A stretch of DNA of 64,000 bases from an uncultured archaeon (GCA_964512105.1 CAZEGI010000001.1:40534-104533); one strand, 5' to 3'; numbered from the stretch's first letter, positions 6,192 to 54,183 are shown. Program-made: numbers and translations. The notes: generated by a model from the sequence alone, not told the origin.

Positions 6192-6196
6192 TTAAA

Positions 6197-10235: not shown

Positions 10236-10255
10236 ATTGTTATTCCTATCTTTTT

Positions 10256-12001: not shown

Positions 12002-12002
12002 G

Positions 12003-12872: not shown

Positions 12873-12873
12873 A

Positions 12874-17527: not shown

Positions 17528-17621
17528 TAGCAAAACACATTAATTTATGAACTTTTTACATGCGTTTTGATAGCTAGCAAATTGCAATTATAGTTCAAAT
17601 ATTTTTGCAATTTGCTATAAT
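17528..17621. repeat. 95-bp palindromic intergenic element, copy A, the inverted partner of 28127-28220. It has internal 12-bp inverted repeats AGCAAATTGCAA/TTGCAATTTGCT and TIR-like ends
   Basis: The reverse complement of 17528-17621 matches 28127-28220 with a 62-nt perfect core (AATTGCAATTTGCTAGCTATCAAAACGCATGTAAAAAGTTCATAAATTAATGTGTTTTGCTA) plus a 14-nt block. It fills the convergent hisS/pilin intergenic space. Confidence 0.85.
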
Positions 17622-19458: not shown

Positions 19459-21780
19459 TTACCACTCACCAATCCCCATCTGTTTCCCGAGACCCTTGAG
19501 CTGCTCTTCCGAATAACCCAGCGCCTCGAGAATTCTCATGACTGCGGGCAGAAGCTGGTTGTTTATGTAGTATTCCGCATCGTAATCTCCTTCCTTCACG
19601 AAGTCTATGACCACAGATTTGTCGCTGATGCTTTTTCCCCTTCTGGTGACTATGTAGGTTACGATGCTGCCCTCCTTGAAATCTGTTCCCTGCTTCATGG
19701 CTTTTTTTGCAGCGACGATGTGCGGCCCTTCCTGGACATATTCCCCCATCTTCCGCGTTATCTGCGTGTTTATCGCAAGGTCCGCGAGTTTCACCTTCCC
19801 GTCCTTTATGTTTTTTATCGCGTCGCGAACAATGTTGGCCGCCTTTTCGGGACTCCTGTCCTGCAGTATCGCGTTCAGAACCTTTTCCTGGGTTTCCTTC
19901 GCTATGTTGGCCCAGTCCCGCCTTCTCGTTTCCAAACCCTTTACCGTGAGTTTCTTGTGCTCGTCCATCAGGGCGTAGCGCTTTTTCGTGATGAAGATTC
20001 CGCGCGGGTACATGCCCTCGAACTCGAGCTCCATCGAGCCTGGAAGTTTTTTGTTTATGTAATCCTGGAGTGCCTTTGCGCTTTCCTTGATTTTACCCGC
20101 ATCCTTTTCGTTTAATTTTACGATGAAGATGCTGTCGGTATCACCGTAAATCACTTTAAACCCATGCGCTTCCGCGTCTTTTATCGTCTGGTGGATGTAC
20201 TCCCTGCCCCATGCCGTGATTGCTTCTGCGCAGTCCTTGGAATACCATCTCGCACGCGCAAACGCGTAATAACCGTACATGCTGTTCGCCAGAATCTTGA
20301 GGGCCTGTTGCTGGACATCGAGCATCTTTTTTTTCTCAGCGTCCTTCTCCTTGCTCTGCCGCGCTTTGGTTTCCATTCTTTTTGAGATAAGACCTTCAAG
20401 AATTTCAGGAATGAAGCCTTTCTTGTTCTTGCAGAAATAATGTCCTGTCGGGGCTTTGTAACCGTCGTTCTTGCAGCAATCGCAGTCCATGGTTGACGGG
20501 TCAACGTTGTGTGATATGATGATGCTTGGATAAAGTGAGCGGAAGTCGAACAAGAGAATGTTATCGTGAATTCCTTTAACCGGCTCAACGACGTATGCCC
20601 CAACATAGGATTCGCTCTGCCGTTCATTGGCTATGTTGTCTGACGGCCTGTTGGGGATGAGAATTCCTTTTTCGTGCGCCTTTATCATGAGTAACTGTTC
20701 GACGCGCTGGCCGGATGCAAGACGCGAGGTTTCGTATATCGGATGCCGCAGAATGCGCGACAGCTCGTACTCGAGAGGAAGAACCGCAAGCGCGATTTTT
20801 AATGCCGCCCTGACATCGCTTATCGAATACTCCATGAGTTTTTTGAAATCTTCCGCATTTTTCGATTCCCATGAGCGGAATATCTCGCTAACGGTTATTA
20901 AACTTTTTTTCTCCTCTCCGAATATTCCGAGATAAACGTCCTCAAGTCTGTACCTCGGAAAATTAAAGTTCTGCCTGCATATCGGGAAGGTGTCAATGTG
21001 CGGCCGGCCCCTGACCTTGGCCCCAAGATTCATGCCTCTGCGCTCCAATTTTATGTCACTGCCATCAATCCCCAGGTCAAGCTCTATTTTATACTTTGCG
21101 GCCCGGTCTTTGAGGTACGGGAAGTCGAAGTTGTCCGTGTTGTAGCCGGTGATGATGTCGACCCCGCGCTCCTTGACGGTTTCAACGAACTTTTTTATCA
21201 TCTCCTGCTCGTCATCAACGAATTCCACGTATTTCAGGTTGGAGCCGGAAATTTTTTTGTAGGTCCAGACGCGTTCAAACCCCTTTGAATCCGCATACCC
21301 GATTACTATCGCCGGGTCCCGCTCGGCGTTCGGGTCGCCCTTCGGCGCGTAAACCTCGATGTCAAACGCTCCGACGAGGAGGTCTGCGAATTCCGCATCC
21401 TCCATCGGAACAAGTTTCGAATCTATGAGATAGCGGTGAGCGAATGGTATTCCCGCCTCTCTGACTTCCTTGCAGGAATCCAGCGCCTTCACGTGCTCTC
21501 TTAGCTCCGGAACATCCCCTGGTTGTTTTACGATAATTTTTGTAACATCGATTTTTTTGGAGACGTTTATCATTGATTTTTTATCGACCCGAACAACCTT
21601 ATTCAGTCCTCTTAATTCCTTTATGAGTTTGTCTATATCGCTATCGGGAATCGCATAGAAATACGGCTCAAATCCGGAAACTTCCTCAACGTTTCTTTTA
21701 TCCTTTTCCTTGTAGAACAGCCTTATCACGGGCTTTTCGTCCCTTATCGTATAATCAATATCCAGAAGCGTTTTCGACAT
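19459..21780 (-). CDS. polB: Family B DNA polymerase
   Basis: Exo motifs are FDIEVYAP and YNTDNFDFPYL. Polymerase motifs are KILANSMYGYYAF and KVIYGDTDSIFI. The likely start is MSKTLLDIDYTIRDEKPVIRLFYK (21780); the longer ORF to 21942 adds an implausible hydrophobic leader. Confidence 0.9.
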   Translation of the reverse strand: MSKTLLDIDYTIRDEKPVIRLFYKEKDKRNVEEVSGFEPYFYAIPDSDIDKLIKELRGLNKVVRVDKKSMINVSKKIDVTKIIVKQPGDVPELREHVKALDSCKEVREAGIPFAHRYLIDSKLVPMEDAEFADLLVGAFDIEVYAPKGDPNAERDPAIVIGYADSKGFERVWTYKKISGSNLKYVEFVDDEQEMIKKFVETVKERGVDIITGYNTDNFDFPYLKDRAAKYKIELDLGIDGSDIKLERRGMNLGAKVRGRPHIDTFPICRQNFNFPRYRLEDVYLGIFGEEKKSLITVSEIFRSWESKNAEDFKKLMEYSISDVRAALKIALAVLPLEYELSRILRHPIYETSRLASGQRVEQLLMIKAHEKGILIPNRPSDNIANERQSESYVGAYVVEPVKGIHDNILLFDFRSLYPSIIISHNVDPSTMDCDCCKNDGYKAPTGHYFCKNKKGFIPEILEGLISKRMETKARQSKEKDAEKKKMLDVQQQALKILANSMYGYYAFARARWYSKDCAEAITAWGREYIHQTIKDAEAHGFKVIYGDTDSIFIVKLNEKDAGKIKESAKALQDYINKKLPGSMELEFEGMYPRGIFITKKRYALMDEHKKLTVKGLETRRRDWANIAKETQEKVLNAILQDRSPEKAANIVRDAIKNIKDGKVKLADLAINTQITRKMGEYVQEGPHIVAAKKAMKQGTDFKEGSIVTYIVTRRGKSISDKSVVIDFVKEGDYDAEYYINNQLLPAVMRILEALGYSEEQLKGLGKQMGIGEW

Positions 21781-21823
21781 TTTAATTTTATAATATAATA
21801 ATCCCAGAGTATAACATATAAGC

Positions 21824-22471
21824 ATGAAAACCGTTCTTTGGATTAAACTGAAAAACGTTGTGGGTGCATTGAGGGAATTGAGCACCGTTATTGCAGAGAG
21901 GAAAGGCAATATCACATATATAGAACAGATAGGCAGCGGCAACGTAGTTTATCTTTCTCTTGAAATCGAAGGTATAAAAAATAGAAAACCACTGATAGAT
22001 GGTCTAAAAAAGTTAAAACCCGTTCTATCTGTTGAAACGGTTCCGAGTTTTTCCGAGATTTACGGGAAACGGGTTATTGTCATAGGCGGTGGGGCGCAGG
22101 TCGCCGAAGTGGCGAAGGGCGCGATATCGGAGGCCGACAGGCACAACATTCGGGGGGAAAAGATAAGTGTCGATACGATCCCCCTGGTTGGTGAGAGGGA
22201 AATCGCAATGGCTGTCAGGGCAGTTCCAAGACTGCCGAGGGCCAGCATTCTTGTCCTTGCGGGCTCGCTGATGGGTGGCGAGATAACGAAGGCCGTGAAG
22301 GAAGTCAGAAAGGGGAGGATTCCGGTCATATCTTTGAACATGGCCGGCTCGGTTCCGGAAGCTGCAGACATGGTTATCTCGGACCCAATACAGGCAGGAG
22401 TCATGGCCGTGATGAGCATAGCAAAAACCGCATGCTTCGACCTCAAAAAACAGAAGGGCAGAAAATATTAG
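21824..22471 (+). CDS. ACT-domain protein with an uncharacterised C-terminal domain
   Basis: The N-terminus [32 protein letters not shown] has an ACT-like beta-alpha-beta-beta-alpha-beta pattern. The C-terminus [20 protein letters not shown]... has no family I can name. Confidence 0.4.
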
Positions 22472-25595: not shown

Positions 25596-26243
25596 ATGCT
25601 TGTCGTTTTGAAAATCGGCGGTAGTCTTTGCAGAGACCCGAAGATCCTTAAAAAACTTCTAAAAAAAATTTCGGCACTTTCGTGTAAATTTGATTTTCTG
25701 GTGGTTCCGGGCGGCGGAGGTTTCGCTGACCTTGTCAGGTCGTATGACAAAAAATTCGAACTAAAACCGGAGATTTCGCATGAGATGGCAATCCTGGCAA
25801 TGGACATCAACGGCCAACTGATTTGTAATTTTAACGGATTTTATCCTGCTTACGATTTGAATTTTAAAAGAAATAAAAAAATTCCGGTGTTGATTCCGTC
25901 GCGGTTTTTATCCAACAAAAAAATCAGGAAAACGTGGGATGTGACTTCGGATTCGATAGCGGCTTACGTTGCCGGATTGATAAATGCCGATATGTTGATT
26001 TTACTCAAGGATGTTGACGGTGTGTTTAGTGGGGACCCCAAGAAGAATAGGGATGTTATCATGTTTGAAAGAATAAACGCAAAGAATCTGAAAAAAATCA
26101 AAAGTTCGTGTCTGGACAAGGAATTCCCGGATTTTATAAAGAAGTTTAAGTTGAAGTCTTATGTTATTAATGGGAAAACCCCGGAAAGGTTAGAAGACCT
26201 GCTGAACGGAAAAAGGTTTGTAGGAACAACGATCGAAGAATGA
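25596..26243 (+). CDS. Amino-acid-kinase-fold protein (short UMP-kinase/isopentenyl-phosphate-kinase-like paralog)
   Basis: MLVVLKIGGSL...VVPGGGGFAD...LILLKDVDGV... and the C-terminal NGKRFVGTTIEE parallel the archaeal PyrH at 36850 (..NGKKFVGTVIE). The specific substrate is unclear. Confidence 0.5.
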   Translation: MLVVLKIGGSLCRDPKILKKLLKKISALSCKFDFLVVPGGGGFADLVRSYDKKFELKPEISHEMAILAMDINGQLICNFNGFYPAYDLNFKRNKKIPVLIPSRFLSNKKIRKTWDVTSDSIAAYVAGLINADMLILLKDVDGVFSGDPKKNRDVIMFERINAKNLKKIKSSCLDKEFPDFIKKFKLKSYVINGKTPERLEDLLNGKRFVGTTIEE

Positions 26244-27103
26244 ATCTTAACGAAAAGGCTTGGCGTTTAATGGATGACGTTATGAGGGGTGGAGAGATTA
26301 AAGCTGATAGATTTAAAACGATGCAAGGTGACGTCATCATTCTTAATTTAAATTTGGTTAAAGATGAGGGTGTAGCCAAAAAAGTTGCGGAGGCGTGCAT
26401 GGGCGGCTTGGGGAAGGTGGATATAGAGAATGATAATTTGGTGGTTGGGTGTAAAGGCAGGGTGGCGCTCGCGACCATGGGCTGTCAGCTTTCGGGCTGG
26501 TCCATAAACGGCGCGCTTGGTTCCGGCCCCGCACGCATTCTCGCAAGAAAGCCGAAGGAGATTTTTAATTTTTTGGGGTACAGTGAAAACGCAAAAAAAG
26601 CAGTGCTTTTTTTGGAAACCGACGGTGGGGTTGGTGAGGATTTATACCGAACTATTCTGGAAAAAACACAAACAGAAAAACTCATGGTCGCTGTGTTTAG
26701 TGGACGTTCGATGGTCGGAAAGATAAATGTTTTGGCACGAGTTCTTGAGATGGCGGTGTTCCGGCTTTATCACCTGGGATACGACATAAGGAATGTGGTT
26801 TACGGAAAAGGTTCTGTGCCGGTACCGAAAAGTAACGACCCAGGTTTATGCAACGACGCGATAATATATTTCGGCTCCGTCCATTTGAAGGTTAAGGGCT
26901 GGGACAAAAATCTTACGGAAAAATGCGTCTCAGGTTCATCGAAGATTCACGGAAAAAGATTCAACGAAATTTTAAAGGACGCAGGGGGCGATTTTTATAA
27001 GATAGACCCCGGGATATTTGCGCCCGCGGAACTGACGGTGAATGATGCAAGAACAGGTAAGAGGTACCATGCGGGTAAAAGGCACAAATATACTAAAAGT
27101 TAA
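26240..27103 (+). CDS. mch: Methenyltetrahydromethanopterin cyclohydrolase
   Basis: VAEACMGGLGKVDIE, GWSINGALGSGPARILARKPKE and FYKIDPGIFAPAELTVNDARTGKRYHAG closely parallel the conserved Mch blocks I recall from methanogen Mch. Confidence 0.75.
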   Translation: MNLNEKAWRLMDDVMRGGEIKADRFKTMQGDVIILNLNLVKDEGVAKKVAEACMGGLGKVDIENDNLVVGCKGRVALATMGCQLSGWSINGALGSGPARILARKPKEIFNFLGYSENAKKAVLFLETDGGVGEDLYRTILEKTQTEKLMVAVFSGRSMVGKINVLARVLEMAVFRLYHLGYDIRNVVYGKGSVPVPKSNDPGLCNDAIIYFGSVHLKVKGWDKNLTEKCVSGSSKIHGKRFNEILKDAGGDFYKIDPGIFAPAELTVNDARTGKRYHAGKRHKYTKS

Positions 27104-27112: not shown

Positions 27113-27295
27113 ATGGATAAGGAAGTGGTCTTGAGGATTTATGAGTTATTACCAAAGAAGGATTGTGGTAAATGCAGGGAAAAGAAATGCGCCGAGTTTG
27201 CCAGAAGACTGCTAACTGGAGAGAGAAAACTCTACGAATGCCCTGAACTGGATGAAAAATCCGTGGAGGGGATAACGCTCATTCTTGAGGAGTAG
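27113..27295 (+). CDS. Stand-alone putative Fe-S cluster domain protein (PF04060-like, RnfC/CdhE N-terminal type), 60 aa
   Basis: LPKKDCGKCREKKCAEFARRLLTGERKLYECPEL gives the four-Cys pattern LP..DCG.C....C..FA..L..G......C. Confidence 0.5.
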   Translation: MDKEVVLRIYELLPKKDCGKCREKKCAEFARRLLTGERKLYECPELDEKSVEGITLILEE

Positions 27296-28106
27296 CAGCA
27301 TTTATAAAATCGCCCGTGGGGATTGTTAGCTTATTAAGTCGTTCCCTCAAATCAGGGGCAAGGATGTCACGGACTATTATTGAACCTGCGTAGATGTGAT
27401 CATCGTCACCGATGATAAGAACCTTTTTGTCATCAATGATTATGGCATTTTCACTTCCGTATTTCAGATAAAATCCGGGAATGTCGCAGCTGAATGTTTT
27501 ATTGGTGCTTACCATGGTAAGGCCGCTTTCGTTTAGTATTGTGAGTATGGAGCAATTTTCGCCATTCATGATGTAACTGTGTATCGGTGCGTTCGTCTGG
27601 GCATTTATCGCACCAAGCGCATAGTAAATGGCGAGCATGCCCTCTAAACCCCTGCCCGTCAATTCCTCGTCCATGACAAGATTTATCGGGTTAAGGTTTA
27701 GTGCTATATCCCTCGCGCGCTCCATTTTCACTGAGCAGTTTAAATCCGTCATAATACAGGAAAAAACATGGCACGTTTTTAAAAGTTCCGCGTCTGTTGA
27801 GCCCTTTATGGACGCCTCGTTCTTGGTTATGTATATTCCGGTATCGCCTGACTCGATTCGTATTTTTTTACCTTCCTCGCTTATTCTGGCAAGGGACGCC
27901 AACTCCAAGCCGCAGTAAAGTTCCGCCTTTCCTGCTGGCTGGAAGAGGTATATGTCCCACCACTTCTGCAGCTCCGTTAGAGGAACATCGGAACAAACCT
28001 TTGTGTCAAGCGTTAGTGAACAGTTCGAATTTGGTTGGTAGGTAAGGTAAGCAAATCCAAAGACGATTGCAATAACAGCCACAACAACAAAAATCCGTTT
28101 GTCCAT
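27279..28106 (-). CDS. Hypothetical membrane-anchored or secreted Cys-rich protein
   Basis: Probable start MDKRIFVVVAVIAIVFGFAYL (N-terminal TM/signal anchor), with several Cys. No family recognised. Confidence 0.4.
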   Translation of the reverse strand: MDKRIFVVVAVIAIVFGFAYLTYQPNSNCSLTLDTKVCSDVPLTELQKWWDIYLFQPAGKAELYCGLELASLARISEEGKKIRIESGDTGIYITKNEASIKGSTDAELLKTCHVFSCIMTDLNCSVKMERARDIALNLNPINLVMDEELTGRGLEGMLAIYYALGAINAQTNAPIHSYIMNGENCSILTILNESGLTMVSTNKTFSCDIPGFYLKYGSENAIIIDDKKVLIIGDDDHIYAGSIIVRDILAPDLRERLNKLTIPTGDFINAATPQE

Positions 28107-28126
28107 CTTAATTATCTTCCCTAAGA

Positions 28127-28220
28127 TAATAGCAAATTGCAAATATTGAAATTTAATTGCAATTTGCTAGCTATCAAAACGCATGTAAAAAGTTCATAAA
28201 TTAATGTGTTTTGCTATAAT
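28127..28220. repeat. 95-bp palindromic intergenic element, copy B, the inverted partner of 17528-17621
   Basis: See copy A. It sits in the divergent promoter space between 28106(-) and 28226(+) and ends ...TTTTGCTATAATataacATG. Confidence 0.85.
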
Positions 28221-28225
28221 ATAAC

Positions 28226-28795
28226 ATGCGATTTGAAAAACAAAAAAATAACGCAATGAAGCGGCTGAACGCGGCGCTGAGGGAAAAAGAGGTCGATAAG
28301 GAGTTAATTCCGATGATAGAGTATGTGAATTCGCTTAATGACTATTATACAACATCGGGCTGCGCCGGAAGAATTTCACTGCTGCATGATTTGGGTTCAA
28401 AACTTGATAGCGAGATGATAGTGAAATGGCACAGGAAGGTGGAAAACGATGAAATTTTAAGATTAATAAAGCCGGTCAATGGAATCGTCTGGTTTATGTA
28501 CGAACCTATGATAGTGCACATCGTCTCAAGAACCGCCGCCGGGGCAAAAAAAGTCCTCGAGATCGGGCTTTCGTCGGGTTTTAAACGCACGGGAATTAGG
28601 GCATTTAAAGAGGAAAGGTACATGGTCGAGATTTGCTCTACGGAGAGGATAGATGTTCCGGTTGTTGAAAACAAGAAAAGACTCGTTGATGACGATTACG
28701 TAAGATATCTGGTCGGTTTGGCTAACAAAAAATTCGTGCAGGGGCAGAAAAAGTTGGTTAGGCTGGAGAGCAATATTAAAAAGGGCTTACCATAA
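28226..28795 (+). CDS. taw3: tRNA wybutosine/wyosine-synthesizing protein 3 (Taw3/TYW3 family)
   Basis: IPMIEYVNSLNDYYTTSGCAGRISLL matches the TYW3 hallmark (..YFTTSSCSGRI..). Confidence 0.75.
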   Translation: MRFEKQKNNAMKRLNAALREKEVDKELIPMIEYVNSLNDYYTTSGCAGRISLLHDLGSKLDSEMIVKWHRKVENDEILRLIKPVNGIVWFMYEPMIVHIVSRTAAGAKKVLEIGLSSGFKRTGIRAFKEERYMVEICSTERIDVPVVENKKRLVDDDYVRYLVGLANKKFVQGQKKLVRLESNIKKGLP

Positions 28796-28804
28796 TAATG
28801 TGAG

Positions 28805-30217
28805 ATGAACGTAAAGCAGACACGTCCCGGGGTCTGGGAATTTAAGGATGAAGGAATGAACGTTCCCGTGAGGATTTATGCGACCGAAAAACTCTTTGGA
28901 ACGATAGAGGAGGGTGTCTTTAGACAGGCTTCGAACGTTGCAAAACTTCCAGGGATATTGAATGCGAGCATGGTCATGCCAGACGGCCATTACGGTTACG
29001 GTTTTCCTATCGGCGGGGTTGCTGCGTTCGATTTGGAAAAGGGAATCATAAGCCCAGGCGGTGTGGGTTATGACATAAATTGCGGCGTGCGTCTTTTGGT
29101 TTCAAACCTTACTGAAGCGGAGGTAAGACCGAAACTCAGGGAATTGGTGGATGGATTGTTCCACAACATACCTTCGGGTTTAGGCAGCAAATCTAAACTT
29201 CGAGCGTCGGGCGCACAGCTCGAGAGGGCATGCACACTCGGCTCACGGTGGGCTGTTGAAGAAGGTTATGGGGTTGAGGATGACTTAGAACATACAGAGG
29301 AGAATGGTGCAATTCCGGGTGCAGACCCGTCAAAAATCAGCGGCAGGGCAAAAGAACGCGGCCAGCCACAGCTTGGAACGCTTGGTTCTGGAAACCATTT
29401 TCTGGAGGTTCAAAGAGTTGACAGGATTATTGACCCTGAAATCGCAGGGAAATTTGGTATAACGGATGTCGGCCAGATTGCGGTTATGGTGCACTGCGGT
29501 AGCCGGGGCCTGGGTTACCAGATTGCTGACGAAGCTATCCAGACGATGCTCAACGCTTCGCGAAAGTACGGTATAAAACTTCCGGACAATGAACTTGCAT
29601 GTGCCCCGCTGAAGTCGAAGGAAGCGGATGACTACGTTAAAGCGATGTACTGTGCCGTGAATTATGCATTCGCGAACAGACAGGTGATAACGCACTGGGT
29701 AAGAGAAACATTCGAACGTGTTTTTGGTGAAAAAATAGGGTTAAAACTTCTTTATGATGTTTGTCATAATATAGCGAAATTTGAAGAACACGAAGGTTTT
29801 GGAAGGGTGTGTGTCCATAGAAAGGGGGCGACAAGAGCATTTGCTGCAGGCAGGAAGGAGATTCCAGCAGAACTCAGGAACATTGGGCAACCAGTAATCG
29901 TGCCGGGCGACATGGGAACAGCTTCCTACGTGCTTGTCGGAACAGAAACCGCGATGAAGGAATCGTGGGGGAGCGTGTGCCACGGTGCAGGCCGGCTTCT
30001 CTCAAGGACCGCGGCAATAAAGAAAGTCCGCGGCGAGCAGGTTAAGCAGGAACTCGAAAAAAAAGGCCAGGTGGTGCGCTCCGATTCATGGAAAACCCTA
30101 GCTGAGGAAGCACCAATGGCGTACAAGAACGTGGATGATGTCATAAGAAGCGTAGAGTTGGCAGGTTTGTCAAAGCCTGTAGCGAGGATGACACCGTTAG
30201 GGGTTGCGAAGGGTTGA
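28805..30217 (+). CDS. rtcB: RNA-splicing ligase RtcB
   Basis: MPDGHYGYGFPIGGV, GYDINCG, GSGNHFLEVQ, HCGSRGLGYQ and SVCHGAGR are the RtcB metal/GMP-binding motifs. Confidence 0.9.
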   Translation: MNVKQTRPGVWEFKDEGMNVPVRIYATEKLFGTIEEGVFRQASNVAKLPGILNASMVMPDGHYGYGFPIGGVAAFDLEKGIISPGGVGYDINCGVRLLVSNLTEAEVRPKLRELVDGLFHNIPSGLGSKSKLRASGAQLERACTLGSRWAVEEGYGVEDDLEHTEENGAIPGADPSKISGRAKERGQPQLGTLGSGNHFLEVQRVDRIIDPEIAGKFGITDVGQIAVMVHCGSRGLGYQIADEAIQTMLNASRKYGIKLPDNELACAPLKSKEADDYVKAMYCAVNYAFANRQVITHWVRETFERVFGEKIGLKLLYDVCHNIAKFEEHEGFGRVCVHRKGATRAFAAGRKEIPAELRNIGQPVIVPGDMGTASYVLVGTETAMKESWGSVCHGAGRLLSRTAAIKKVRGEQVKQELEKKGQVVRSDSWKTLAEEAPMAYKNVDDVIRSVELAGLSKPVARMTPLGVAKG

Positions 30218-30280
30218 GTTAGTAGCAAGTAATCTGGACTTGTTTAAGTTTATTTATGCATCATATGCTGAATTATTATC

Positions 30281-30766
30281 ATGCGGACGAAAGCAAGGGA
30301 TTACGGGGCTACCCTGAGGGCATTCGGTAGGGCGAAAGCCTTCGGTGAAGAGTTGAGGGATTTTGCAGGCTCTGTTGATCCGGTATACGCTACCCTTGCA
30401 GATGAGTATGAAAGGTTTGTAGCACCTACTTTGCTCAGGAGAGATAGTCCAGTAGTAGGTAAACATAACCTTATTGATCTGATTCGCAAACCTCCGGATA
30501 ATATTAATGCCCTTGGCTTGGATGAAACGGATGTGAGGATAGTGGGGTTTTCTAGAAGGCTTAATAACCCCGACCTCCGTGATGCTTTGGCGAATAACGC
30601 AACCTATTTGATTGCACTAAAACCAGATTCGAATGAATACGAAGAGTTGGTACAGAAGTTCGGGGTAAGTGCATGCAAACGATTCGGAGAAATTCCTACT
30701 CCAAAAGATATAGGTGGTGAAAAGAGGATAGACGAACATGGTAGGACACCTCACAGTCTGGATTAG
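30281..30766 (+). CDS. Hypothetical protein, locally GC-rich
   Basis: 161-aa ORF with a TATA-like TTTATTTATG about 35 nt upstream. I recognise no motif. GC is noticeably higher than in the flanks. Confidence 0.4.
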   Translation: MRTKARDYGATLRAFGRAKAFGEELRDFAGSVDPVYATLADEYERFVAPTLLRRDSPVVGKHNLIDLIRKPPDNINALGLDETDVRIVGFSRRLNNPDLRDALANNATYLIALKPDSNEYEELVQKFGVSACKRFGEIPTPKDIGGEKRIDEHGRTPHSLD

Positions 30767-30774
30767 ATAACAAA

Positions 30775-31569
30775 ATGCCAACAGTCGAATTTGACATTGA
30801 CGAATTGAACGAAGGAATCGGGAAAAAACTCTCCGAGAAGGAACTCCGGGAGATTGTTCCGATGATTGGTGTTGGTCTCGAGAGTATTGCTGACGGAAAA
30901 CTTATTATCGAGGTTTTCCCGAATCGGCCGGACATGCTCAGCATCGAGGGTTTCACGCATGCGTTTAGAGGTTTTCTCGGAATTGAAACCGGAATGAAGG
31001 AACTTACGGTGAGAAACTCGGACGTAAAACTCTTTGTGGATAGCTCCGTGAAAAACGTAAGGCCATTTGTTGTTGCGGGAATGATAAAAAATGTGGAGAT
31101 AGACAACAAAAAGCTGATATCCATAATGAACGTGCAGGAGAAGTTGCACCTTACGCACGGGCAGAACAGAAAGAAGGTCGCGATTGGCGTTCACGACATG
31201 GATAAGGTTAATGCACCGTTTTTCTACAAGGCAGTCAAGCCTGAGGCGGTTTCTTTTGTTCCTTTGGATATGAGTAAGGAGTTAAACCTGAAACAGATTC
31301 TGCAACAGCACCCGAAAGGCAGGGATTACGCTTACACGCTTGAGGGTTTTGAAAAGTATCCGGTAATTGTTGATGGCAAAAACAACGTCTTGTCCTTCCC
31401 GCCGATAATAAACGGAGAGCTTACAAGGGTTACTGAAGAAACACGGAATTTGTTTATGGAACTGACCGGCACGAATCAGCACGCTCTCGAAATTGCGCTG
31501 AATATCGTTGTTAGCTCGATAGCCGACTCTAAGGTGGATGTTTACTCCGTCGAAATAATAAAAAAATAG
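30775..31569 (+). CDS. pheT: Phenylalanyl-tRNA synthetase beta subunit, N-terminal fragment only (B1 + B3/B4 editing region); truncated or split gene
   Basis: MPTVEFDIDELNEGIGKKLSEKELREIVPMIGV...VFPNRPDMLSIEGFTHAFRGFLG matches the archaeal PheT N-terminus. The ORF stops after 264 aa, about half of PheT, and a minus-strand gene follows directly. Confidence 0.65.
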   Translation: MPTVEFDIDELNEGIGKKLSEKELREIVPMIGVGLESIADGKLIIEVFPNRPDMLSIEGFTHAFRGFLGIETGMKELTVRNSDVKLFVDSSVKNVRPFVVAGMIKNVEIDNKKLISIMNVQEKLHLTHGQNRKKVAIGVHDMDKVNAPFFYKAVKPEAVSFVPLDMSKELNLKQILQQHPKGRDYAYTLEGFEKYPVIVDGKNNVLSFPPIINGELTRVTEETRNLFMELTGTNQHALEIALNIVVSSIADSKVDVYSVEIIKK

Positions 31570-31573
31570 GGAA

Positions 31574-31963
31574 TTAAGCGTATCTCTCAGCTATGTTCCC
31601 TATCATCGGCAGCTTGTACTTAATCCCGCGGTATGCCTGGAATATCAGGAGTAACCAAACCAAAATCGTTCCGAGTATCAGAAGGGACCACATCAGCACG
31701 AACAGAAATCCACCACCAAGCAGCAGCGTCACTATAAGCACCGGTGATATGAGAAGTGCAATAAACCAGATAGCAATCACAACGAGGCTTGCGATGATTG
31801 ACTGCATGGCGTGAAACCGCACAAATTTATCGTCCCTCTCGGACAGGTAGACCGACAAACCGCTAAATAAACCGAAGATGTACGTCACCGCAGCTACCAT
31901 GTTGTTTTGTTTTTTTGTGGTCGTTTGGGATTTTTTTGCCGTTGTTTGGGCTTTCCTTGCCAT
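31574..31963 (-). CDS. DUF4870-family small membrane protein
   Basis: MVAAVTYIFGLFSGLSVYLSERDDKFVRFHAMQSIIASLVVIAIWF...AYRGIKYKLPMIGNIAE matches the DUF4870 pattern (D.FVRFHA.QS..., Y.LP.IG). Confidence 0.65.
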   Translation of the reverse strand: MARKAQTTAKKSQTTTKKQNNMVAAVTYIFGLFSGLSVYLSERDDKFVRFHAMQSIIASLVVIAIWFIALLISPVLIVTLLLGGGFLFVLMWSLLILGTILVWLLLIFQAYRGIKYKLPMIGNIAERYA

Positions 31964-32118
31964 TGTATCACCCCCTTATTCATTGTTCGTAGGAGTATAA
32001 AAATCGTATATAAAAACCGCTGGCTAAAGACAAGGTTTTTATAGATAAAACTGTCCCTTTTAATGGACTGTTGGGGTAGTTTTATAGATATAAAAAACGA
32101 AACCCATAATATAGCAGA

Positions 32119-34911
32119 ATGAAAATTAGCAAGATTTACACGCTGTCCTTTGCCATTTCTGCCAACACTGAAAAATCCCTGCTCCAAACCCTCAGCAAGA
32201 AAAAGAACGCCAAGATTGTAAAGGGTTACATGCCTCTGGGCAAGTTCAAAATTTCACGAGCCGAAGAGATAAAAAAAGGCACGATAATCAAGAAGATTTC
32301 ATACGACACGAGAACGAACCACTTTTTTGTTGACCTTGCGCACGGCGACCTCTACTACATGAACAGGATGGGCGCCTTCAAAAAGAATCCGGAAGTGGTC
32401 AAGTCGGATTTCCTGAGGAAGATTATTGACTTCCCGCCTGAGGCAATTTCGCTTCTGGGGCAGCTTCACGAGTTTGGAAGCATTCCATACGACGAGCTAA
32501 ACCAGACGCTTGTGTATGACCTTGCACGCGAGGGATTCATAGACATCTGGGAACCGGAAGCAGACCAGATATTCAACCTCATACGCTCGACCATAGAGCC
32601 GGATGAAGTTATAATGCACAAGCACTTTGTGAAACTCCGCGATTACCTTCCGAACTTCAGCAATTCACGGTATAACCTTGATGTTTTTTTGCACGTAAGT
32701 GAGACCGTTGATGATACCTATACAAAAGATACCATCAGGTATTCGAACGAGAGGGTTTGCGAATTGCTGGAGGGCATATTCGGCGGACACTGCGTCCTAA
32801 CTGGTTTGGTTTATCTGCCATACATAACGTGCATACACATAGAGAAGGACAGGCACGTCTCCGAGGTGTTCTTCCCCCTGTGCGCAAGAGACGCATCGGA
32901 CGTGAAAACCGGTTTTAAGGATGAGGTAAAGCTAAAACCGATAACCTTCATGACCCGGATGGATGCAGCCGGCTCCGTTCCGCTTGAGTCATCGACAATA
33001 AGCTTTTCCGATGTTGCGGATTTGGAGGATGTAAAGGAAAAAATCAGGCGTCTGATAGTTTATCCTCTGGTGAAACCGGAAGTTGCAAAGAAGTTTAAGA
33101 AGGTTGGAGGCGGCAGCGTTCTTTTTTACGGGCCTCCGGGTTGCGGTAAAACGTACATTGCAAGGGCAACGGTCGGCGAGTGCGGACTTTCTTTCTTCAA
33201 CATAAATACAAGCGACATTATTGCCGAGGGTTCCGAGGTGGCAACGAAGAATCTGCACGATGTGTTCATGCGTGCTTCCAAAAACGCACCTACGATTTTA
33301 TTCTTTGATGAGATTGACGCAATCGGCGGGGCCAGAAGCGATAAGGGCTCGCAGAGGGTCGTGGTTAACCAGTTTCTGATGGAGATGGACGGCATTGAAA
33401 CGCTGAGCGAGAACGTGCTGGTTATAGGCTCGACGAACGCGCCGTGGTACCTGGACCCTGCGCTGAGAAGGGCAGGTAGGTTTAATGATTTGATATTCAT
33501 TCCGCCACCCGACCTGAAAACACGGGTGGAGATATTCAAGATACACACGAGGAAAAAACCCATTTCCGAGGATATTGACTTTGAAAAACTTGCGGAGTTG
33601 ACTGAGGGCTATGCCTCATCGGACATAAAGGCGATATGCGATGACGCCATTGAAATACCTTGGGAGGAAGCGCTGCATGGAATTCCGGAAAGAAAGGCCA
33701 ACATGCAGGATTTTAGGTCAGTCATAAAAAAGAGGAAATCCTCACTTACGCCATGGTACAAGTTGGCCGAGCGGGAGATAAAGAAGAGTGGCGAGTCTGA
33801 ATTGTTTAGTGAACTTGCGACGCACATCTTGAAGCATGCGGGCGGTGTAGATGCCGCAGTCAAGCCGGGGGTGACGTTTGCTGACGTCGGTAATATGGAG
33901 GACGTCAAGGAGGAGATAAGGAAGAAGGTTGTTTATCCGATAAAAGACCCAAAACTGGCCGAGAGTTATGGTACAAAGGTTGGCGGCGGAATACTGTTTT
34001 ACGGGCCTCCGGGTTGCGGTAAAACATACATTGCAAGAGCGGCCGCAGGTGAATGCGAGGCAGCGTTCTTCAACATCCGGATTACGGACATATTGGGCGA
34101 GGAAGAAGGTTTGCGAGAAAAGAAGCTAAATTACGTTTTTGACAGGGCATCGAGAAACACGCCAGCGATACTTTTTTTCGATGAGCTTGACGCTATCGGT
34201 GGCAGAAGAGAAACCACAAGGGGTGACGCACGCACGCTTATAAACCAGTTCCTCACGGAAATGGATGGTTTTGAGAAGAAAGAGGGCGTTGTGGTTGTGG
34301 GTTCAACCAACGCACCGTGGGATATCGACCCCGCACTGCGGAGAGCGGGTAGGTTTACGGAGCAGGTTTATGTTCCGCCGCCGAACAAGGAAATGCGAAT
34401 TGAGATATTCAAGATACACGTGAAGAATAAACCCGTGGCAAAGAACATAAACTTCGGAAAGCTTGCGGAACTCACGGAAGGTTATTCGTCAGCAGACATA
34501 AAGGCGATATGCGACCTTGCTGCAGAGATACCGTGGGTTGAGGCGCTGGATGGTAAGGAAAAAAGAGAGATCAACATGCAGGACTTCCTGTCAGTGATAA
34601 AAAAGAGGAACTCTTCCATAATCCCGTGGTTCAAACTCGCAAAGAAACAGCTGAAGGAAAGCGGCGAGCGCGACATCTACGAGGAGTTATGGTTGGATAT
34701 AAAAACGCTCAGCAAAAAATTTGAGGAGAAAGAAAAGGCGGAGGATAAAAAGAAAAGCAAGGACAAGCTCAAGACCGAAAGGGAAAAGCTTGAAAAAATG
34801 ATAAAAACTGCAAAACAGAAGTTTGGCAGGGGCGAAATTGACAAAAGCGTTTACAACGAAATCATGAAGGACTACGAAAAACGGCTGATTGAGATTGAGT
34901 GTTCCGAGTGA
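32119..34911 (+). CDS. Tandem-AAA+ ATPase (CDC48/VCP-like D1+D2) with a novel ~300-aa N-terminal domain and a C-terminal coiled-coil
   Basis: Two AAA modules have Walker A LFYGPPGCGKTYIARA (twice) and Walker B ILFFDEIDAIGG / ILFFDELDAIGG, plus second-region-of-homology arginines. The N-terminal 300 aa show no CDC48-N-like motif. Confidence 0.7.
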   Translation: MKISKIYTLSFAISANTEKSLLQTLSKKKNAKIVKGYMPLGKFKISRAEEIKKGTIIKKISYDTRTNHFFVDLAHGDLYYMNRMGAFKKNPEVVKSDFLRKIIDFPPEAISLLGQLHEFGSIPYDELNQTLVYDLAREGFIDIWEPEADQIFNLIRSTIEPDEVIMHKHFVKLRDYLPNFSNSRYNLDVFLHVSETVDDTYTKDTIRYSNERVCELLEGIFGGHCVLTGLVYLPYITCIHIEKDRHVSEVFFPLCARDASDVKTGFKDEVKLKPITFMTRMDAAGSVPLESSTISFSDVADLEDVKEKIRRLIVYPLVKPEVAKKFKKVGGGSVLFYGPPGCGKTYIARATVGECGLSFFNINTSDIIAEGSEVATKNLHDVFMRASKNAPTILFFDEIDAIGGARSDKGSQRVVVNQFLMEMDGIETLSENVLVIGSTNAPWYLDPALRRAGRFNDLIFIPPPDLKTRVEIFKIHTRKKPISEDIDFEKLAELTEGYASSDIKAICDDAIEIPWEEALHGIPERKANMQDFRSVIKKRKSSLTPWYKLAEREIKKSGESELFSELATHILKHAGGVDAAVKPGVTFADVGNMEDVKEEIRKKVVYPIKDPKLAESYGTKVGGGILFYGPPGCGKTYIARAAAGECEAAFFNIRITDILGEEEGLREKKLNYVFDRASRNTPAILFFDELDAIGGRRETTRGDARTLINQFLTEMDGFEKKEGVVVVGSTNAPWDIDPALRRAGRFTEQVYVPPPNKEMRIEIFKIHVKNKPVAKNINFGKLAELTEGYSSADIKAICDLAAEIPWVEALDGKEKREINMQDFLSVIKKRNSSIIPWFKLAKKQLKESGERDIYEELWLDIKTLSKKFEEKEKAEDKKKSKDKLKTEREKLEKMIKTAKQKFGRGEIDKSVYNEIMKDYEKRLIEIECSE

Positions 34912-41708: not shown

Positions 41709-42405
41709 TCTTGAATTGTATCTTCCCTTCGTACAGTGCTTTTCCGACAATCGCGCCCCACGCCTCTGCTTCCTTTGTGTCCTCAAGGTCCTGTTCGGTG
41801 GAAATTCCGCCTGCAACGATTACCGGTTTTGTGGTTGAAGAAACAACCTTTGCTATCCTCGCCTTGTTTATGCCCTGCATTCTGCCTTCAACATCAACGT
41901 TCGTGTACAGAAACCCCCAGCAGCGGTCCTCGAGTTCTTTCATTAGCTCCGTGGTTTTGAATTCTGTTTTCTCCTGCCAGCCTTTGACCACAATGGTGTC
42001 CTGCTTCGAATCGAGAGCGATTATAACGCGGTTGAGCCCGAACTCCTTTTCTAACTTTCGTATTATAATAAAATTGTTTTTGTAATCGTTTATTGCAAGC
42101 GTGCCGAGAATCACCCTGTCCATGCCCATCCTCAGGGCGGTTTGCGCTTTTTCGTAATCCCTTATCCCGCCGCCGAAATGCACTTTTGCTCCGGTTTGTC
42201 TTTTTATCTCCCAAACGGTTTTTAGGTTGTCGGCATCGCCGAAGGTGGCATCGAGGTCGATAACGTGCAAAATTTCCGCTCCGAGATAACGCCAGTTTTT
42301 TGCTATCGTCACCGGGTCGCCGTAAAACTTTTCCGTTCCGGGTTTTCCGCCAACGAGCTGTGCACATTTCCCTCCATATATGTCAATTGCTGGAATGACC
42401 TTCAT
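41698..42405 (-). CDS. hisA: ProFAR isomerase HisA (HisA/HisF TIM-barrel)
   Basis: MKVIPAIDIYGGKCAQLV, ILHVIDLDA, FGGGIR and VIVAGGIST match. Confidence 0.8.
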   Translation of the reverse strand: MKVIPAIDIYGGKCAQLVGGKPGTEKFYGDPVTIAKNWRYLGAEILHVIDLDATFGDADNLKTVWEIKRQTGAKVHFGGGIRDYEKAQTALRMGMDRVILGTLAINDYKNNFIIIRKLEKEFGLNRVIIALDSKQDTIVVKGWQEKTEFKTTELMKELEDRCWGFLYTNVDVEGRMQGINKARIAKVVSSTTKPVIVAGGISTEQDLEDTKEAEAWGAIVGKALYEGKIQFKNEI

Positions 42406-43679
42406 TTTATGTTTTTTCGTAAATCCGCTATCGCTTCCGTAGTCTGAAGTGGCTGTTTTTTATTTTTGATTTTTTCGTACGTTTTTTCCGACAGCAGGTT
42501 TTTTAATTCGATTCTGAGCTCGTCGCATGCCTGTTTTAGGGCAACGTGCGATTCTGAATCGTATTTCAAAAAACAGACCACCCCAATGTAACTATTCCTA
42601 TGCGAAGTTAAATAATCCGCGACCCTTCTTTTTGTTACTTCGATGTATCTCTTTTTTATTTCATCCGTTTCCTTGCTTTCGTCCCAATCGTATGAGTTGA
42701 AAGGGTAACAGTCTTCGAACTCCCTCGGAACAACGCCCGCGTTGCTCAGCATAAGTTCGTGGATTTCGTCGCGGTTCTTTAAGCCCTTCAGAACGTTTAT
42801 TATTTTTTTGTGGGTTTCGGATTCCAAATACGGTTTTTTGTACGAGCATGGCAGGAACAGCGCGACCTTCTTTTTTTCCGGCGGAGCGTACCACCTGTTG
42901 AGGTAGTCCTGCCAGATTTCGAAGTAAGGGTGGGTTAAAAATTCCTCCCCGACCCCAACAAGGGGTTTCTTCAGGCGGTTGGGGAAGTTTGGTATAAAGC
43001 GAAACGTTTCTGCATCAAATTCAATCCTCTTGTTTCCTGCATATTTTTTCGTTAATTCAAAAAATTCTTTTTTCGACAAAAAATTCCATTCCCCGTTCAG
43101 CCACAGGTTGAACAGCTGTGAATTTTTATGCGGAAGCGTGTTTATTAGGACTATTGAATCCGAGTGCTTTAGCGCATAACCAACGGATTCATCCAGACTT
43201 TTCCTGACGTTTTTCACGAACGGCGGGTTTACGAGGATGTACGTTCTTAGTTTTACCCCGTGCTTTTTTAGAATTCTGGCTGCGTCTTCGTAGTTCTTGA
43301 GCGTGAACCCCTTGTTGATTTTTTTCAGAATTTTGTCGTCTGCAACCTCTAAACCGATGGCCACGATTAATTGCAAATCTCTGAATTCATTTAACTTCTC
43401 ATCGGTTATGAATTCCGGCCGTGACTCTATCATAAGTTTTTTTATTTTCCTCTCTTTTAGGTTTCTTACGAAATATTCCCTGACTTTCAGGGAAACCTGT
43501 TTATCGTCCAGAAAACTTCCGGAGCCGAAGACCTTGACGCCGGTCATGTTTTTCAGTTTTTTGAAGAACTGCTCCATGCGGCCTTTAAGCTGCTCTTGTG
43601 AGATTTCACTCGTGCTGTAGCCGCAGAATATGCACCTGCTCCAAGAACACCTTCCGGGAAGAATCAACACCGAATCCAT
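42402..43679 (-). CDS. Radical-SAM-like protein with a noncanonical CX4CX2C motif and a C-terminal domain of unknown function (archaeosine RaSEA-like?)
   Basis: N-terminal LPGRCSWSRCIFCGY. The C-terminal region ALFLPCSYKKPY...GVVCFLKYDSE has no family I can name with confidence. Confidence 0.45.
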   Translation of the reverse strand: MDSVLILPGRCSWSRCIFCGYSTSEISQEQLKGRMEQFFKKLKNMTGVKVFGSGSFLDDKQVSLKVREYFVRNLKERKIKKLMIESRPEFITDEKLNEFRDLQLIVAIGLEVADDKILKKINKGFTLKNYEDAARILKKHGVKLRTYILVNPPFVKNVRKSLDESVGYALKHSDSIVLINTLPHKNSQLFNLWLNGEWNFLSKKEFFELTKKYAGNKRIEFDAETFRFIPNFPNRLKKPLVGVGEEFLTHPYFEIWQDYLNRWYAPPEKKKVALFLPCSYKKPYLESETHKKIINVLKGLKNRDEIHELMLSNAGVVPREFEDCYPFNSYDWDESKETDEIKKRYIEVTKRRVADYLTSHRNSYIGVVCFLKYDSESHVALKQACDELRIELKNLLSEKTYEKIKNKKQPLQTTEAIADLRKNIK

Positions 43680-53016: not shown

Positions 53017-53454
53017 ATGACACTGAAGTTTAATCCGCTCATGCGAAGGGTAGAGGTAACCCTTTTGATTTTAGTGTCAATCTCTGCTGTTTCTTTTGCA
53101 GGCTATGCAGTAACAACCAATGAATTGTTCATGTGGAGAAGCATCGCCCTCGGCTTTTCCGTTTCTCTTTTGCTTTTTTTGTTGTACCCGACAGCAAGAG
53201 GCATAAAAAGGGGCGATGTCGTTATGGTTTCGGTATGGCGGGAGATAGAAACACCAACCATTACGGAATCGTACATCGATGACCTACCGACAATCGCATT
53301 GGAAAACGGCAGGAAAAATTCAAGAATACACGTCCAGCTCTGGGATGGAAGCAAAGGCATAGTTGAAATAGAAAGCTACGGTTTTATAACTCCCGCCGAG
53401 GGGAAACTTCTGGAAACGGAAATGCCCGTGAGGAACCGTTATCTAAACCCGTAA
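53017..53454 (+). CDS. Small membrane protein with a C-terminal beta domain (NfeD-like?)
   Basis: Two N-terminal TM helices plus a soluble C-terminus (GIKRGDVVMVSVWREI...GIVEIESYGF). The NfeD assignment is tentative. Confidence 0.35.
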   Translation: MTLKFNPLMRRVEVTLLILVSISAVSFAGYAVTTNELFMWRSIALGFSVSLLLFLLYPTARGIKRGDVVMVSVWREIETPTITESYIDDLPTIALENGRKNSRIHVQLWDGSKGIVEIESYGFITPAEGKLLETEMPVRNRYLNP

Positions 53455-54026: not shown

Positions 54027-54027
54027 C

Positions 54028-54183
54028 TCACGGACCTTCAAATCCGCAACTTCCGCAGACGTACTTTGCACCGAGACCCCGGCAGGAACTGCATCTCGTG
54101 ATTTTTTCCTTACCGCAAACCGGGCAGTTAAACTCGACGTATCTCTCAACTACCTCTTTACCGCAACTGCTGCATTTTTTCAT
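54028..54183 (-). CDS. Four-CxxC zinc-ribbon small protein (51 aa), not in the ORF track
   Basis: Reverse translation gives MKKCSSCGKEVVERYVEFNCPVCGKEKITRCSSCRGLGAKYVCGSCGFEGP. Its stop TGA overlaps the tsaC-like ATG (GTGAGATG). Confidence 0.6.
   Translation of the reverse strand: MKKCSSCGKEVVERYVEFNCPVCGKEKITRCSSCRGLGAKYVCGSCGFEGP

What the first reader, a model, noticed from the sequence alone, without database searches (positions are those of the whole stretch)
30218..31569. Truncated or split phenylalanyl-tRNA synthetase beta subunit next to a GC-rich orphan ORF
ORF 30775-31569 matches the PheT N-terminus (B1 plus the B3/B4 editing domain; PNRPDMLSIEGFTHAFRGFLG) but terminates after 264 aa. 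An opposite-strand gene starts 5 nt later, so the catalytic-like C-terminal half is not here. It is either a split gene with the other half elsewhere (as seen in small archaeal genomes), a stand-alone trans-editing B3/B4 protein, or a pseudogene. The 161-aa ORF immediately upstream (30281-30766) has visibly higher GC and no recognisable family, which hints at an insertion that broke the locus.
Basis: partly seen in the sequence, partly recalled or inferred. Interest (0 to 1): 0.5.

Follow-up and report, generated by a model that had tools for sequence, protein, structure and literature searches.

The report
Known split pheT, N-terminal half
This 264-residue gene is the intact N-terminal (editing) half of the phenylalanyl-tRNA synthetase beta subunit, which is encoded as two separate genes throughout the Altiarchaeota archaea, as published in 2016, so it is real but not new.

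Summary
ORF 30775-31569 (+) is real. It is the B1 plus B3/4 (editing) half of archaeal PheT: TIGR00471 positions 1-261 of 551, 307.7 bits, above the equivalog cut-off. It is not a pseudogene or an assembly artefact. Of the 120 best homologues (53-64% identity), 119 are also short, 113 of them 262-273 aa; many are named Candidatus Altiarchaeota. Most end within two residues of this one. Editing residues Ser207, Asn213 and Thr231 are invariant. The same locus occurs on 10 independently assembled contigs. Related Altiarchaeota carry the other half (B5 plus B6/7, 277-303 aa, TIGR00471 about 267-550) as a free-standing gene elsewhere. About 130 other archaeal loci examined have the usual 520-600-aa gene. 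Bird et al. 2016 (PMC4975002) already described this split, just before B5, as a synapomorphy of the Altiarchaeales. The window holds no C-half and no pheS, and I could not retrieve this organism's own C-half. The upstream 161-aa ORF is not GC-rich (0.459 against 0.464 for the window; GC3 0.40). It lies at the wrong end to have caused the split and is a singleton orphan absent from related loci. Verdict: already known, low interest.

The parts
30775..31569 (+). pheT-N: N-terminal half of the split phenylalanyl-tRNA synthetase beta subunit (264 aa plus stop)
   Evidence: TIGR00471 positions 1-261 of 551, 307.7 bits. 2CXI at E=6e-52. AF2 model pLDDT 89.9, TM 0.92 to 2CXI. Of the 120 best homologues, 119 are also short.
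30775..30981 (+). B1 domain (about residues 1-69)
   Evidence: Pfam PF18262 over residues 1-69, 25.1 bits, just under the gathering score of 26.8. Structurally superposed on 2CXI and 3L4G chain B.
31018..31548 (+). B3/4 editing domain (about residues 82-258, mapped from P. horikoshii residues 87-263)
   Evidence: Pfam PF03483, 43.4 bits. Alignment to 2CXI. 2CXI domain limits taken from PMC12268091.
31264..31467 (+). Stretch holding the editing-pocket residues L164, I198, S207 (31393-31395), N213 (31411-31413), R218, E229 and T231 (31465-31467)
   Evidence: Mapped from P. horikoshii L168, L202, S211, N217, R223, D234 and T236 through the alignment. S, N and T are invariant in 120/120 N-halves and L in 119/120. 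The Asn217 role is from PMC3275996. The roles of the other residues are from my memory of Sasaki et al. 2006.
31555..31573 (+). Break point: the last residues (…EIIKK), TAG stop at 31567-31569 and the 4-nt spacer
   Evidence: Junction alignment: N-halves stop 3 residues after the YSVEI strand, and C-halves of relatives begin at the K-TP-L-P linker before B5. C-halves map to TIGR00471 positions 267-550.
30281..30766 (+). Orphan 161-aa ORF 8 nt upstream of pheT-N. It is a neighbour, not part of the split.
   Evidence: No family match. Singleton cluster. No tblastn hit in about 170 related loci other than the same population's own contigs L001/L002. GC 0.459, GC3 0.40. AF2 pLDDT 39.
31574..31963 (-). 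Convergent small membrane-protein gene (DUF4870/MamF_MmsF-like, 129 aa) that bounds the locus
   Evidence: Pfam PF09685, 24.2 bits. The same kind of gene lies downstream of pheT-N in relatives.

Best explanation
This is the N-terminal piece (beta-N: B1 plus the B3/4 editing domain) of a phenylalanyl-tRNA synthetase beta subunit. An ancestor of the Altiarchaeota split this gene into two, in the linker between B3/4 and B5. The window comes from a member of that lineage; this is inferred from the names of the best hits.

Shown here:
- The gene is intact and folds as a complete B1-B3/4 module.
- Its editing pocket and its end point are conserved across more than 100 sequence clusters.
- Related genomes carry the complementary B5-B6/7 piece (beta-C) as a separate gene at an unrelated locus.
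- The two pieces tile the archaeal PheT model with nothing missing.

Inferred, with about 70% probability given the identification:
- Beta-N and beta-C are translated separately.
- They reassemble non-covalently with the alpha subunit (PheS) into an (alpha/beta-N/beta-C)2 enzyme.
- Beta-C provides the alpha-binding, catalytic-like core.
- Beta-N hydrolyses mischarged Tyr-tRNAPhe, using Asn213 and its neighbours.

Neither terminus at the break carries an added docking peptide or intein remnant, so assembly would rely on the native domain interfaces.
For: Identity:
- TIGR00471 positions 1-261 of 551, above the equivalog cut-off.
- Pfam B1 plus B3_4.
- 2CXI at E=6e-52.
- AF2 pLDDT 89.9, with TM 0.92 to 2CXI and 0.91 to human PheRS beta.

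Conservation and selection:
- 119 of the 120 best hits are also short and 113 are 262-273 aa, at 53-64% identity. Many are named Candidatus Altiarchaeota/Altiarchaeales.
- 100 of 120 end within 2 residues of this protein's end. S207, N213 and T231 are invariant in 120/120.

Not an artefact:
- The identical locus is on 10 contigs from JGI, Logan, ENA and NCBI assemblies.

The other half exists:
- Altiarchaeota proteins of 285-306 aa with B5 plus tRNA_synthFbeta, lying mid-contig among unrelated genes.
- They map to TIGR00471 positions 267-550.
- The junction alignment shows the pieces abut.

Lineage specificity:
- Of 80 genome loci, only the three labelled Altiarchaeota are short (287-301 aa). 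The others not cut by a contig end are mostly 535-600 aa.
- The metagenome scan shows the same pattern.

Literature:
- Bird et al. 2016 report the split just before B5, at non-adjacent loci, as a synapomorphy.
- The archaeal N-terminal fragment is stable on its own (2CXI).
- The archaeal B3/4 module edits when transplanted onto TyrRS (PMC3275996).
Against: - I did not retrieve the C-half or pheS of this very organism. They are not in the 64-kb window, and the one metagenome scan returned no contig from the window's known samples.
- Lineage assignment rests on the names of best hits at 53-64% identity.
- Post-translational reassembly has never been tested. In the searched library only Bird et al. 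discuss the split, and they too only infer function.
- One unsplit relative, P0087, appears among the top 120 hits. By sequence it groups with full-length PheTs of other archaea.
Confidence: 0.9

Rival explanations
1. Beta-N is a dissociable, free-standing trans-editing factor. After the split it no longer sits stably in the synthetase. It clears Tyr-tRNAPhe from solution, while alpha plus beta-C alone aminoacylate.
For: It is a separate polypeptide with no added docking element. Its editing residues are strictly conserved. The archaeal N-terminal fragment is stable alone (2CXI). A transplanted B3/4 module edits Tyr-tRNA outside its native context (PMC3275996). Stand-alone relatives of B3/4 exist (CtdA).
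Against: The B1 domain is retained and the whole surface is well conserved (66% mean column identity), as expected if native interfaces are kept. The isolated archaeal module is said to be non-specific, also attacking Tyr-tRNATyr, which would be harmful if it were free (PMC3275996). No experiment has been done either way.
Confidence: 0.2
2. The ORF is a diverged paralogue, and a normal full-length pheT exists elsewhere in the genome.
For: The rest of this genome was not available to me.
Against: It scores above the pheT_arch equivalog cut-off with only half the model. Every locus identifiable as Altiarchaeota that carries B5-B6/7 is short: L011, L012 and L016 by their record titles, and L091, L092 and L098 by similarity to them. 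Bird et al. found pheT as a single split copy.
Confidence: 0.03
3. The ORF is a pseudogene, the decaying remnant of a truncated pheT.
For: It has only half the usual length.
Against: Length, end point and catalytic residues are conserved across 119 clusters at 53-64% identity. The fold is predicted with confidence. PheRS is essential and the complementary half persists.
Confidence: 0.01
4. The truncation is an assembly chimera or sequencing frameshift at 31569-31574.
For: None beyond the abrupt end.
Against: The same junction occurs on 10 contigs from different assemblers and samples, with 99.98-100% identity across 28000-32200. Homologues in other species end at the same residue, and most are followed by a small membrane-protein gene and a double-AAA ATPase gene. 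Bird et al. checked read mapping and three assemblers.
Confidence: 0.01
5. Insertion of the upstream 161-aa ORF (foreign, GC-rich DNA) broke the locus.
For: The ORF is an orphan confined to this population, and its GC3 is atypical (0.40).
Against: It is not GC-rich. It lies upstream of the N-half, about 800 nt from the break point. The split is present in relatives that lack this ORF. No match in viral contigs or PHROGs.
Confidence: 0.01

Closest known systems
Split pheT of Altiarchaeales (Bird, Baker, Probst, Podar & Lloyd 2016, Front Microbiol 7:1221; PMC4975002)
   Same: Same break point, after B3/4 and just before B5. Same size of N-piece. The halves are at non-adjacent loci. The best homologues are named Altiarchaeota. 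Conserved residues are retained.
   Different: Nothing essential. This organism's N-half is only 53-64% identical to the others found, so it adds a further lineage. Its own C-half was not retrieved here.
Canonical archaeal/eukaryal PheRS beta subunit (TIGR00471; P. horikoshii 2CXI, human 3L4G chain B)
   Same: B1 and B3/4 folds (TM 0.91-0.92), editing-pocket residues and N-terminal sequence.
   Different: The canonical protein is one chain of about 550 aa that continues into B5 and B6/7. Here the chain stops 3 residues after the last B3/4 strand.
Other split aminoacyl-tRNA synthetase genes (Aquifex aeolicus LeuRS alpha/beta; Nanoarchaeum equitans AlaRS), as cited by Bird et al.
   Same: An essential synthetase encoded in two separately translated pieces, broken at a domain boundary and presumed to reassemble.
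   Different: Different enzymes and lineages. In A. aeolicus LeuRS reassembly has been shown biochemically (from my own knowledge). For this PheT it has not.
CtdA, canavanyl-tRNAArg deacylase, a stand-alone B3/B4-like trans-editing enzyme (PMC12268091)
   Same: A free polypeptide with the B3/B4 fold.
   Different: CtdA is bacterial-type, has no B1, has a different substrate and different catalytic residues, and is a weak structural match (TM 0.43). This protein is not a member.

Membership tests
Archaeal PheRS beta subunit (TIGR00471 pheT_arch) | Whole-protein score at or above the curated equivalog cut-off (282.65 bits) | tested here: met
   307.7 bits over model positions 1-261.
Archaeal PheRS beta subunit (TIGR00471 pheT_arch) | N-terminal B1 domain followed by the B3/4 editing domain | tested here: met
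   PF03483 at 43.4 bits, above its cut-off. PF18262 at 25.1 bits, just under its 26.8 cut-off. Model TM 0.92 to 2CXI over both domains.
Archaeal PheRS beta subunit (TIGR00471 pheT_arch) | Editing-pocket residues (P. horikoshii L168, L202, S211, N217, R223, D234, T236) | tested here: met
   The window protein has L164, I198, S207, N213, R218, E229 and T231. S, N and T are invariant in 120 homologues. The Asn217 role is from PMC3275996; the other roles are recalled from Sasaki et al. 2006.
Archaeal PheRS beta subunit (TIGR00471 pheT_arch) | B5 and B6/7 (catalytic-like) domains on the same polypeptide | tested here: not met
   The ORF stops at residue 264. No B5 or B6/7 is present in the window. 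This is therefore a half-subunit, not a canonical beta chain.
Archaeal PheRS beta subunit (TIGR00471 pheT_arch) | Partner alpha subunit (pheS) in the genome and heteromeric assembly | not testable with these tools
   pheS is not in the window. The rest of the genome is unavailable.
Altiarchaeales split pheT (Bird et al. 2016) | N-piece ends in the linker just before B5 | tested here: met
   Junction alignment. The end point is shared with 100 of 120 homologues to within 2 residues.
Altiarchaeales split pheT (Bird et al. 2016) | Complementary B5-B6/7 piece encoded as a separate gene at a non-adjacent locus | tested here: inconclusive
   Shown for relatives: P0334, P0308 and P0358, and loci L011, L012, L016, L091, L092 and L098. 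It is absent from this 64-kb window. This organism's own C-half was not recovered.
Altiarchaeales split pheT (Bird et al. 2016) | Host belongs to Altiarchaeota (now Candidatus Altarchaeota) | tested here: inconclusive
   Named best hits are almost all Altiarchaeota/Altiarchaeales, and the taxon name was checked.
Stand-alone B3/B4-type trans-editing enzymes (CtdA) | Single B3/B4-like domain of the CtdA subclass with its own catalytic residues | tested here: not met
   TM 0.40-0.43 and 8-9% identity to CtdA. The protein has a B1 domain and archaeal-type PheT residues.

The most novel reading that the evidence does not exclude
After the fission, beta-N became a dissociable trans-acting Tyr-tRNAPhe deacylase, and alpha plus beta-C form a minimal aminoacylating core. 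If so, Altiarchaeota would be a natural example of a synthetase releasing its editing domain as a separate factor, and the first archaeal-type stand-alone B3/B4 editor.
Probability: 0.15. Interest if true: 0.5.

Novelty: already known. Interest (0 to 1): 0.12.

Why it matters
The split was published in 2016 as a phylogenetic marker for the Altiarchaeales, so nothing new is discovered here. Three modest points remain.

1. With today's much larger data the split holds without exception in the data examined. Of the 120 best N-half clusters, 119 are also short. Every B5-B6/7 locus identifiable as Altiarchaeota is short. About 130 loci from other archaea are full length.

2. The function of the two-piece enzyme is still untested, so it is a ready-made natural system for asking how far PheRS editing depends on covalent linkage.

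3. There is an annotation consequence. N-halves pass the NCBIfam cut-off and are named as the whole beta subunit. C-halves score just below it (262-277 bits against 282.65), and the two with an NCBI name are labelled 'hypothetical protein'. This can distort completeness and marker-gene counts.

Tried and rejected
- **B5 stretch as protein-database query.** The 86-aa B5 stretch of the unsplit relative P0087 found only one fragment. That search was wasted.
- **Exhaustive representative search with that fragment.** It returned mostly full-length PheTs and many proteins of about 245 aa that simply start at an internal conserved Met (…RMGY…). I judged these to be truncated gene calls, not C-halves.
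- **Proteins of about 290 aa starting 'MGG.IYS…'.** These also start inside the end of B3/4 and come from short contigs, so they were rejected as evidence of other splits.
- **Exact-sequence cluster look-ups.** They gave no organism names.
- **Pairing N- and C-halves within one assembly.** The accessions returned differed.
- **The single metagenome scan.** It did not return a contig from the window's samples.
- **The 161-aa ORF.** No Pfam, NCBIfam or PHROG match, no viral-contig relative, and a single-sequence AF2 model at pLDDT 39 that was too poor for fold search.
- **Non-coding RNA.** Rfam and tRNA scans of the window found nothing, so no RNA gene explains the RtcB-pheT spacer.
- **Promoter and terminator tool.** Not used, because it models bacterial signals.

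Full report
**Observation.** The ORF at 30775-31569 (+) exists, encodes 264 aa and contains the quoted peptide.
- It matches NCBIfam TIGR00471 (archaeal pheT) over model positions 1-261 of 551 at 307.7 bits, above the equivalog cut-off of 282.65 even though only half the model is covered.
- Pfam finds B3_4 (43.4 bits) and PhetRS_B1 (25.1 bits, just under its cut-off).
- The best solved structure is 2CXI, the N-terminal fragment of the Pyrococcus horikoshii PheRS beta subunit. It matches at E=6e-52, with query residues 3-263 aligned to 3-268.
- An AlphaFold2 model built on 60 homologues has mean pLDDT 89.9. It superposes on 2CXI with TM 0.92 and on human PheRS beta (3L4G chain B) with TM 0.91.
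- The ORF at 30281-30766 (+), 161 aa, also exists and has no Pfam, NCBIfam or PHROG match.

Two details of the finding are wrong.
- The 161-aa ORF is not GC-rich. Its GC is 0.459 against 0.464 for the window. About 61% of windows of the same length have GC at least as high. Its GC3 of 0.40 is lower than that of its neighbours, 0.48-0.58.
- The opposite-strand gene at 31574-31963 does not start next to pheT. It is convergent and ends there, 4 nt from the pheT stop.

**Not an artefact and not a pseudogene.** The exact protein is encoded on 10 contigs from JGI, Logan, ENA and NCBI assemblies, with the same neighbours. DNA identity across 28000-32200 is 99.98-100%.

A protein-database search gave 629 hits.
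- Of the best 120, at 53-64% identity, 119 are also short, and 113 of them are 262-273 aa. Many are named Candidatus Altiarchaeota or Altiarchaeales by NCBI.
- 100 of the 120 end within two residues of this protein's end.
- The only one that continues into B5 is P0087, which is cut by a contig end. By sequence it groups with full-length PheTs of other archaea such as P0123 and P0124.

I mapped the P. horikoshii editing residues through the 2CXI alignment. Asn217 is documented in PMC3275996. L168, L202, S211, R223, D234 and T236 are recalled from Sasaki et al. 2006. The window protein has L164, I198, S207, N213, R218, E229 and T231. Across the 120 homologues:

| Position | Residues found |
|---|---|
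| S207, N213, T231 | invariant (120/120) |
| L164 | L in 119 |
| R218 | R or K in 119, Q in 1 |
| E229 | E or D only |
| I198 | I in 90, F in 28, V and L in 1 each |

. This is purifying selection on a working editing pocket.

**The other half.** Nothing in the window encodes B5 or B6/7, and pheS is absent too. tblastn with eleven C-terminal queries found nothing, and Pfam scans of essentially all long ORFs found only unrelated housekeeping genes.

Using an unsplit relative I reached C-terminal sequences. With a profile of them I recovered proteins of 285-306 aa carrying B5 plus tRNA_synthFbeta. Two are labelled Candidatus Altiarchaeales archaeon A3 and Candidatus Altarchaeum sp..
- They are complete genes in the middle of contigs of up to 61.7 kb, flanked by unrelated genes: Cbf5, a thiolase-like gene, DUF1016 and a Pelota/eRF1-like gene.
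- They map to TIGR00471 positions 267-550, 271-549 and 275-548. The two pieces therefore tile the model.
- A joint alignment shows N-halves stopping three residues after the last B3/4 strand (…YSVEI) and C-halves starting at the K-TP-L-P linker before B5. There is no overlap, no loss and no added docking peptide.

**Lineage specificity.** I scanned one genome per GTDB species with the C-half profile and kept 80 loci.
- The three labelled Altiarchaeota are L011 and L012 (Altarchaeum) and L016 (Altiarchaeales WOR_SM1_SCG). They have an in-frame stop 18-23 codons upstream of the match and ORFs of 287-301 aa.
- The other 77 come from Aenigmatarchaeota, Woesearchaeota, Nanoarchaeota, Methanosarcinales and others. 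Those not cut by a contig end are full length, mostly 535-600 aa. A few larger or irregular ORFs were not examined further.

A metagenome scan gave the same picture. The closest matches (L091, L092 on a 107-kb contig, and L098) are 277-301 aa, and the more distant ones not cut by a contig end are nearly all 520-590 aa.

**Comparison with the literature.** Bird et al. [quoted passage not shown] They place the split just before B5. It was present in five of six genomes and a SAG, supported by read mapping and three assemblers, and inferred to be functional and to recombine post-translationally. It is the only paper in the searched library that discusses the split, and there is no functional follow-up. 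The finding is therefore already known. My analysis adds only that it holds in far more data, and that this window represents a fairly divergent member, with at most 64% identity to any other N-half.

**The upstream ORF.** It is a singleton at 90% clustering. Among about 170 related loci fetched, it has a tblastn match only in the same population's own contigs, L001 and L002. It has no viral relative, and its single-sequence structure model is uninformative (pLDDT 39).

In eight other Altiarchaeota loci the gene upstream of pheT-N differs: TrkA/TrkH, TrkH alone, shikimate dehydrogenase, or an unknown 462-aa gene. Downstream, most keep one or two small membrane-protein genes on the opposite strand and then a double-AAA, Cdc48-like ATPase. 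Because the ORF lies at the 5' end of the N-half and is absent where the split is present, it cannot have caused the split.

By eye, an A+T-rich TTTATTTAT element lies about 26-34 nt upstream of its ATG. This would suit an archaeal TATA box for a leaderless transcript that might also carry pheT-N, 8 nt downstream. This is inference only.

**Mechanism.**
- Shown: an intact, conserved B1-B3/4 module encoded alone, and, in relatives, a complementary B5-B6/7 gene elsewhere.
- Inferred: both are translated separately and assemble with PheS into an (alpha/beta-N/beta-C)2 enzyme. Beta-C supplies the alpha-binding, catalytic-like module, and beta-N hydrolyses Tyr-tRNAPhe. I give this about 70%.
- Main rival, about 15-20%: beta-N acts as a dissociable trans-editing factor. 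The stability of the isolated archaeal fragment (2CXI) and the activity of the transplanted module (PMC3275996) make this conceivable. The reported lack of tRNA specificity of the isolated module argues against a free form.
- Paralogue, pseudogene, chimera and insertion readings are each at or below a few per cent, for the reasons above.

**Limits.** I could not obtain this organism's own C-half or pheS, and I did not place the organism phylogenetically beyond the names of its best hits.

Noticed in passing
window 28226-31569 (+): Four same-strand genes lie close together: Taw3/TYW3 (the tRNA-Phe wyosine methyltransferase, 28226-28795), RtcB tRNA ligase (28805-30217), the orphan ORF (30281-30766) and pheT-N. 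The gaps are 9, 63 and 8 nt. This makes a tRNA(Phe)-themed cluster, but it is not conserved in the other Altiarchaeota loci examined.
   Followed up: partly
window 31574-34911; loci L003, L007, L171, L172, L173, L174: Synteny downstream of pheT-N is conserved in most Altiarchaeota loci examined. One or two small membrane-protein genes (DUF4870/MamF_MmsF, DUF2085 or Yip1-like) lie on the opposite strand, followed by a large double-AAA (Cdc48-like) ATPase of 750-1210 aa (930 aa here, 32119-34911). The IMC4 locus (L005) differs.
   Followed up: partly
P0308, P0358; Altiarchaeota C-halves score 262-277 bits against TIGR00471, just under the 282.65 cut-off. The two with an NCBI name are labelled 'hypothetical protein'. 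N-halves pass the cut-off and are named as the whole beta subunit. This asymmetry may be systematic and could affect marker-gene counts.
   Followed up: partly
window 30281-30766: The orphan ORF has GC3 of 0.40 against 0.48-0.58 for all neighbouring genes. It is either a recently acquired or fast-evolving gene, or not a real coding sequence. Without it the RtcB-pheT spacer would be 557 nt. Rfam and tRNA scans found nothing there.
   Followed up: partly
window 597-14016 (+): A long same-strand block. It holds a TPR/SNAP-like 850-aa protein, a MoxR AAA ATPase, an FG-GAP/beta-propeller protein and three large proteins with few or no domains. These are followed by a T2SSE-type secretion ATPase (10256-12001) and two T2SSF-like membrane proteins (12003-12872 and 12874-14016). 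This looks like a type IV pilus or archaellum-like assembly cluster with cell-surface cargo.
   Followed up: no
window 42402-43679 (-): A 425-aa protein combines a radical SAM domain with DUF5591, a domain I associate with archaeosine tRNA-modification enzymes. It was not examined further.
   Followed up: no
window 17621-18871, 49042-49941, 53439-54149, 54707-56011, 57584-58870: The window is rich in translation-related genes: HisRS, deoxyhypusine synthase, Sua5/YrdC, GatD and TiaS (agmatidine synthase). It also has family B DNA polymerase (19459-21942), NrdD (59203-61593), arginine-biosynthesis genes and methenyl-H4MPT cyclohydrolase (26240-27103). This is an ordinary chromosomal core region, not an island.
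   Followed up: partly
window 27279-28142 (-): A 287-aa ORF with an N-terminal hydrophobic segment and several Cys residues has no Pfam family.
   Followed up: no
loci L027, L030, L035, L072: Some DPANN pheT ORFs are 708-790 aa, well over the usual 550 aa or so. This suggests C-terminal extensions or fusions. They were not examined.
   Followed up: no
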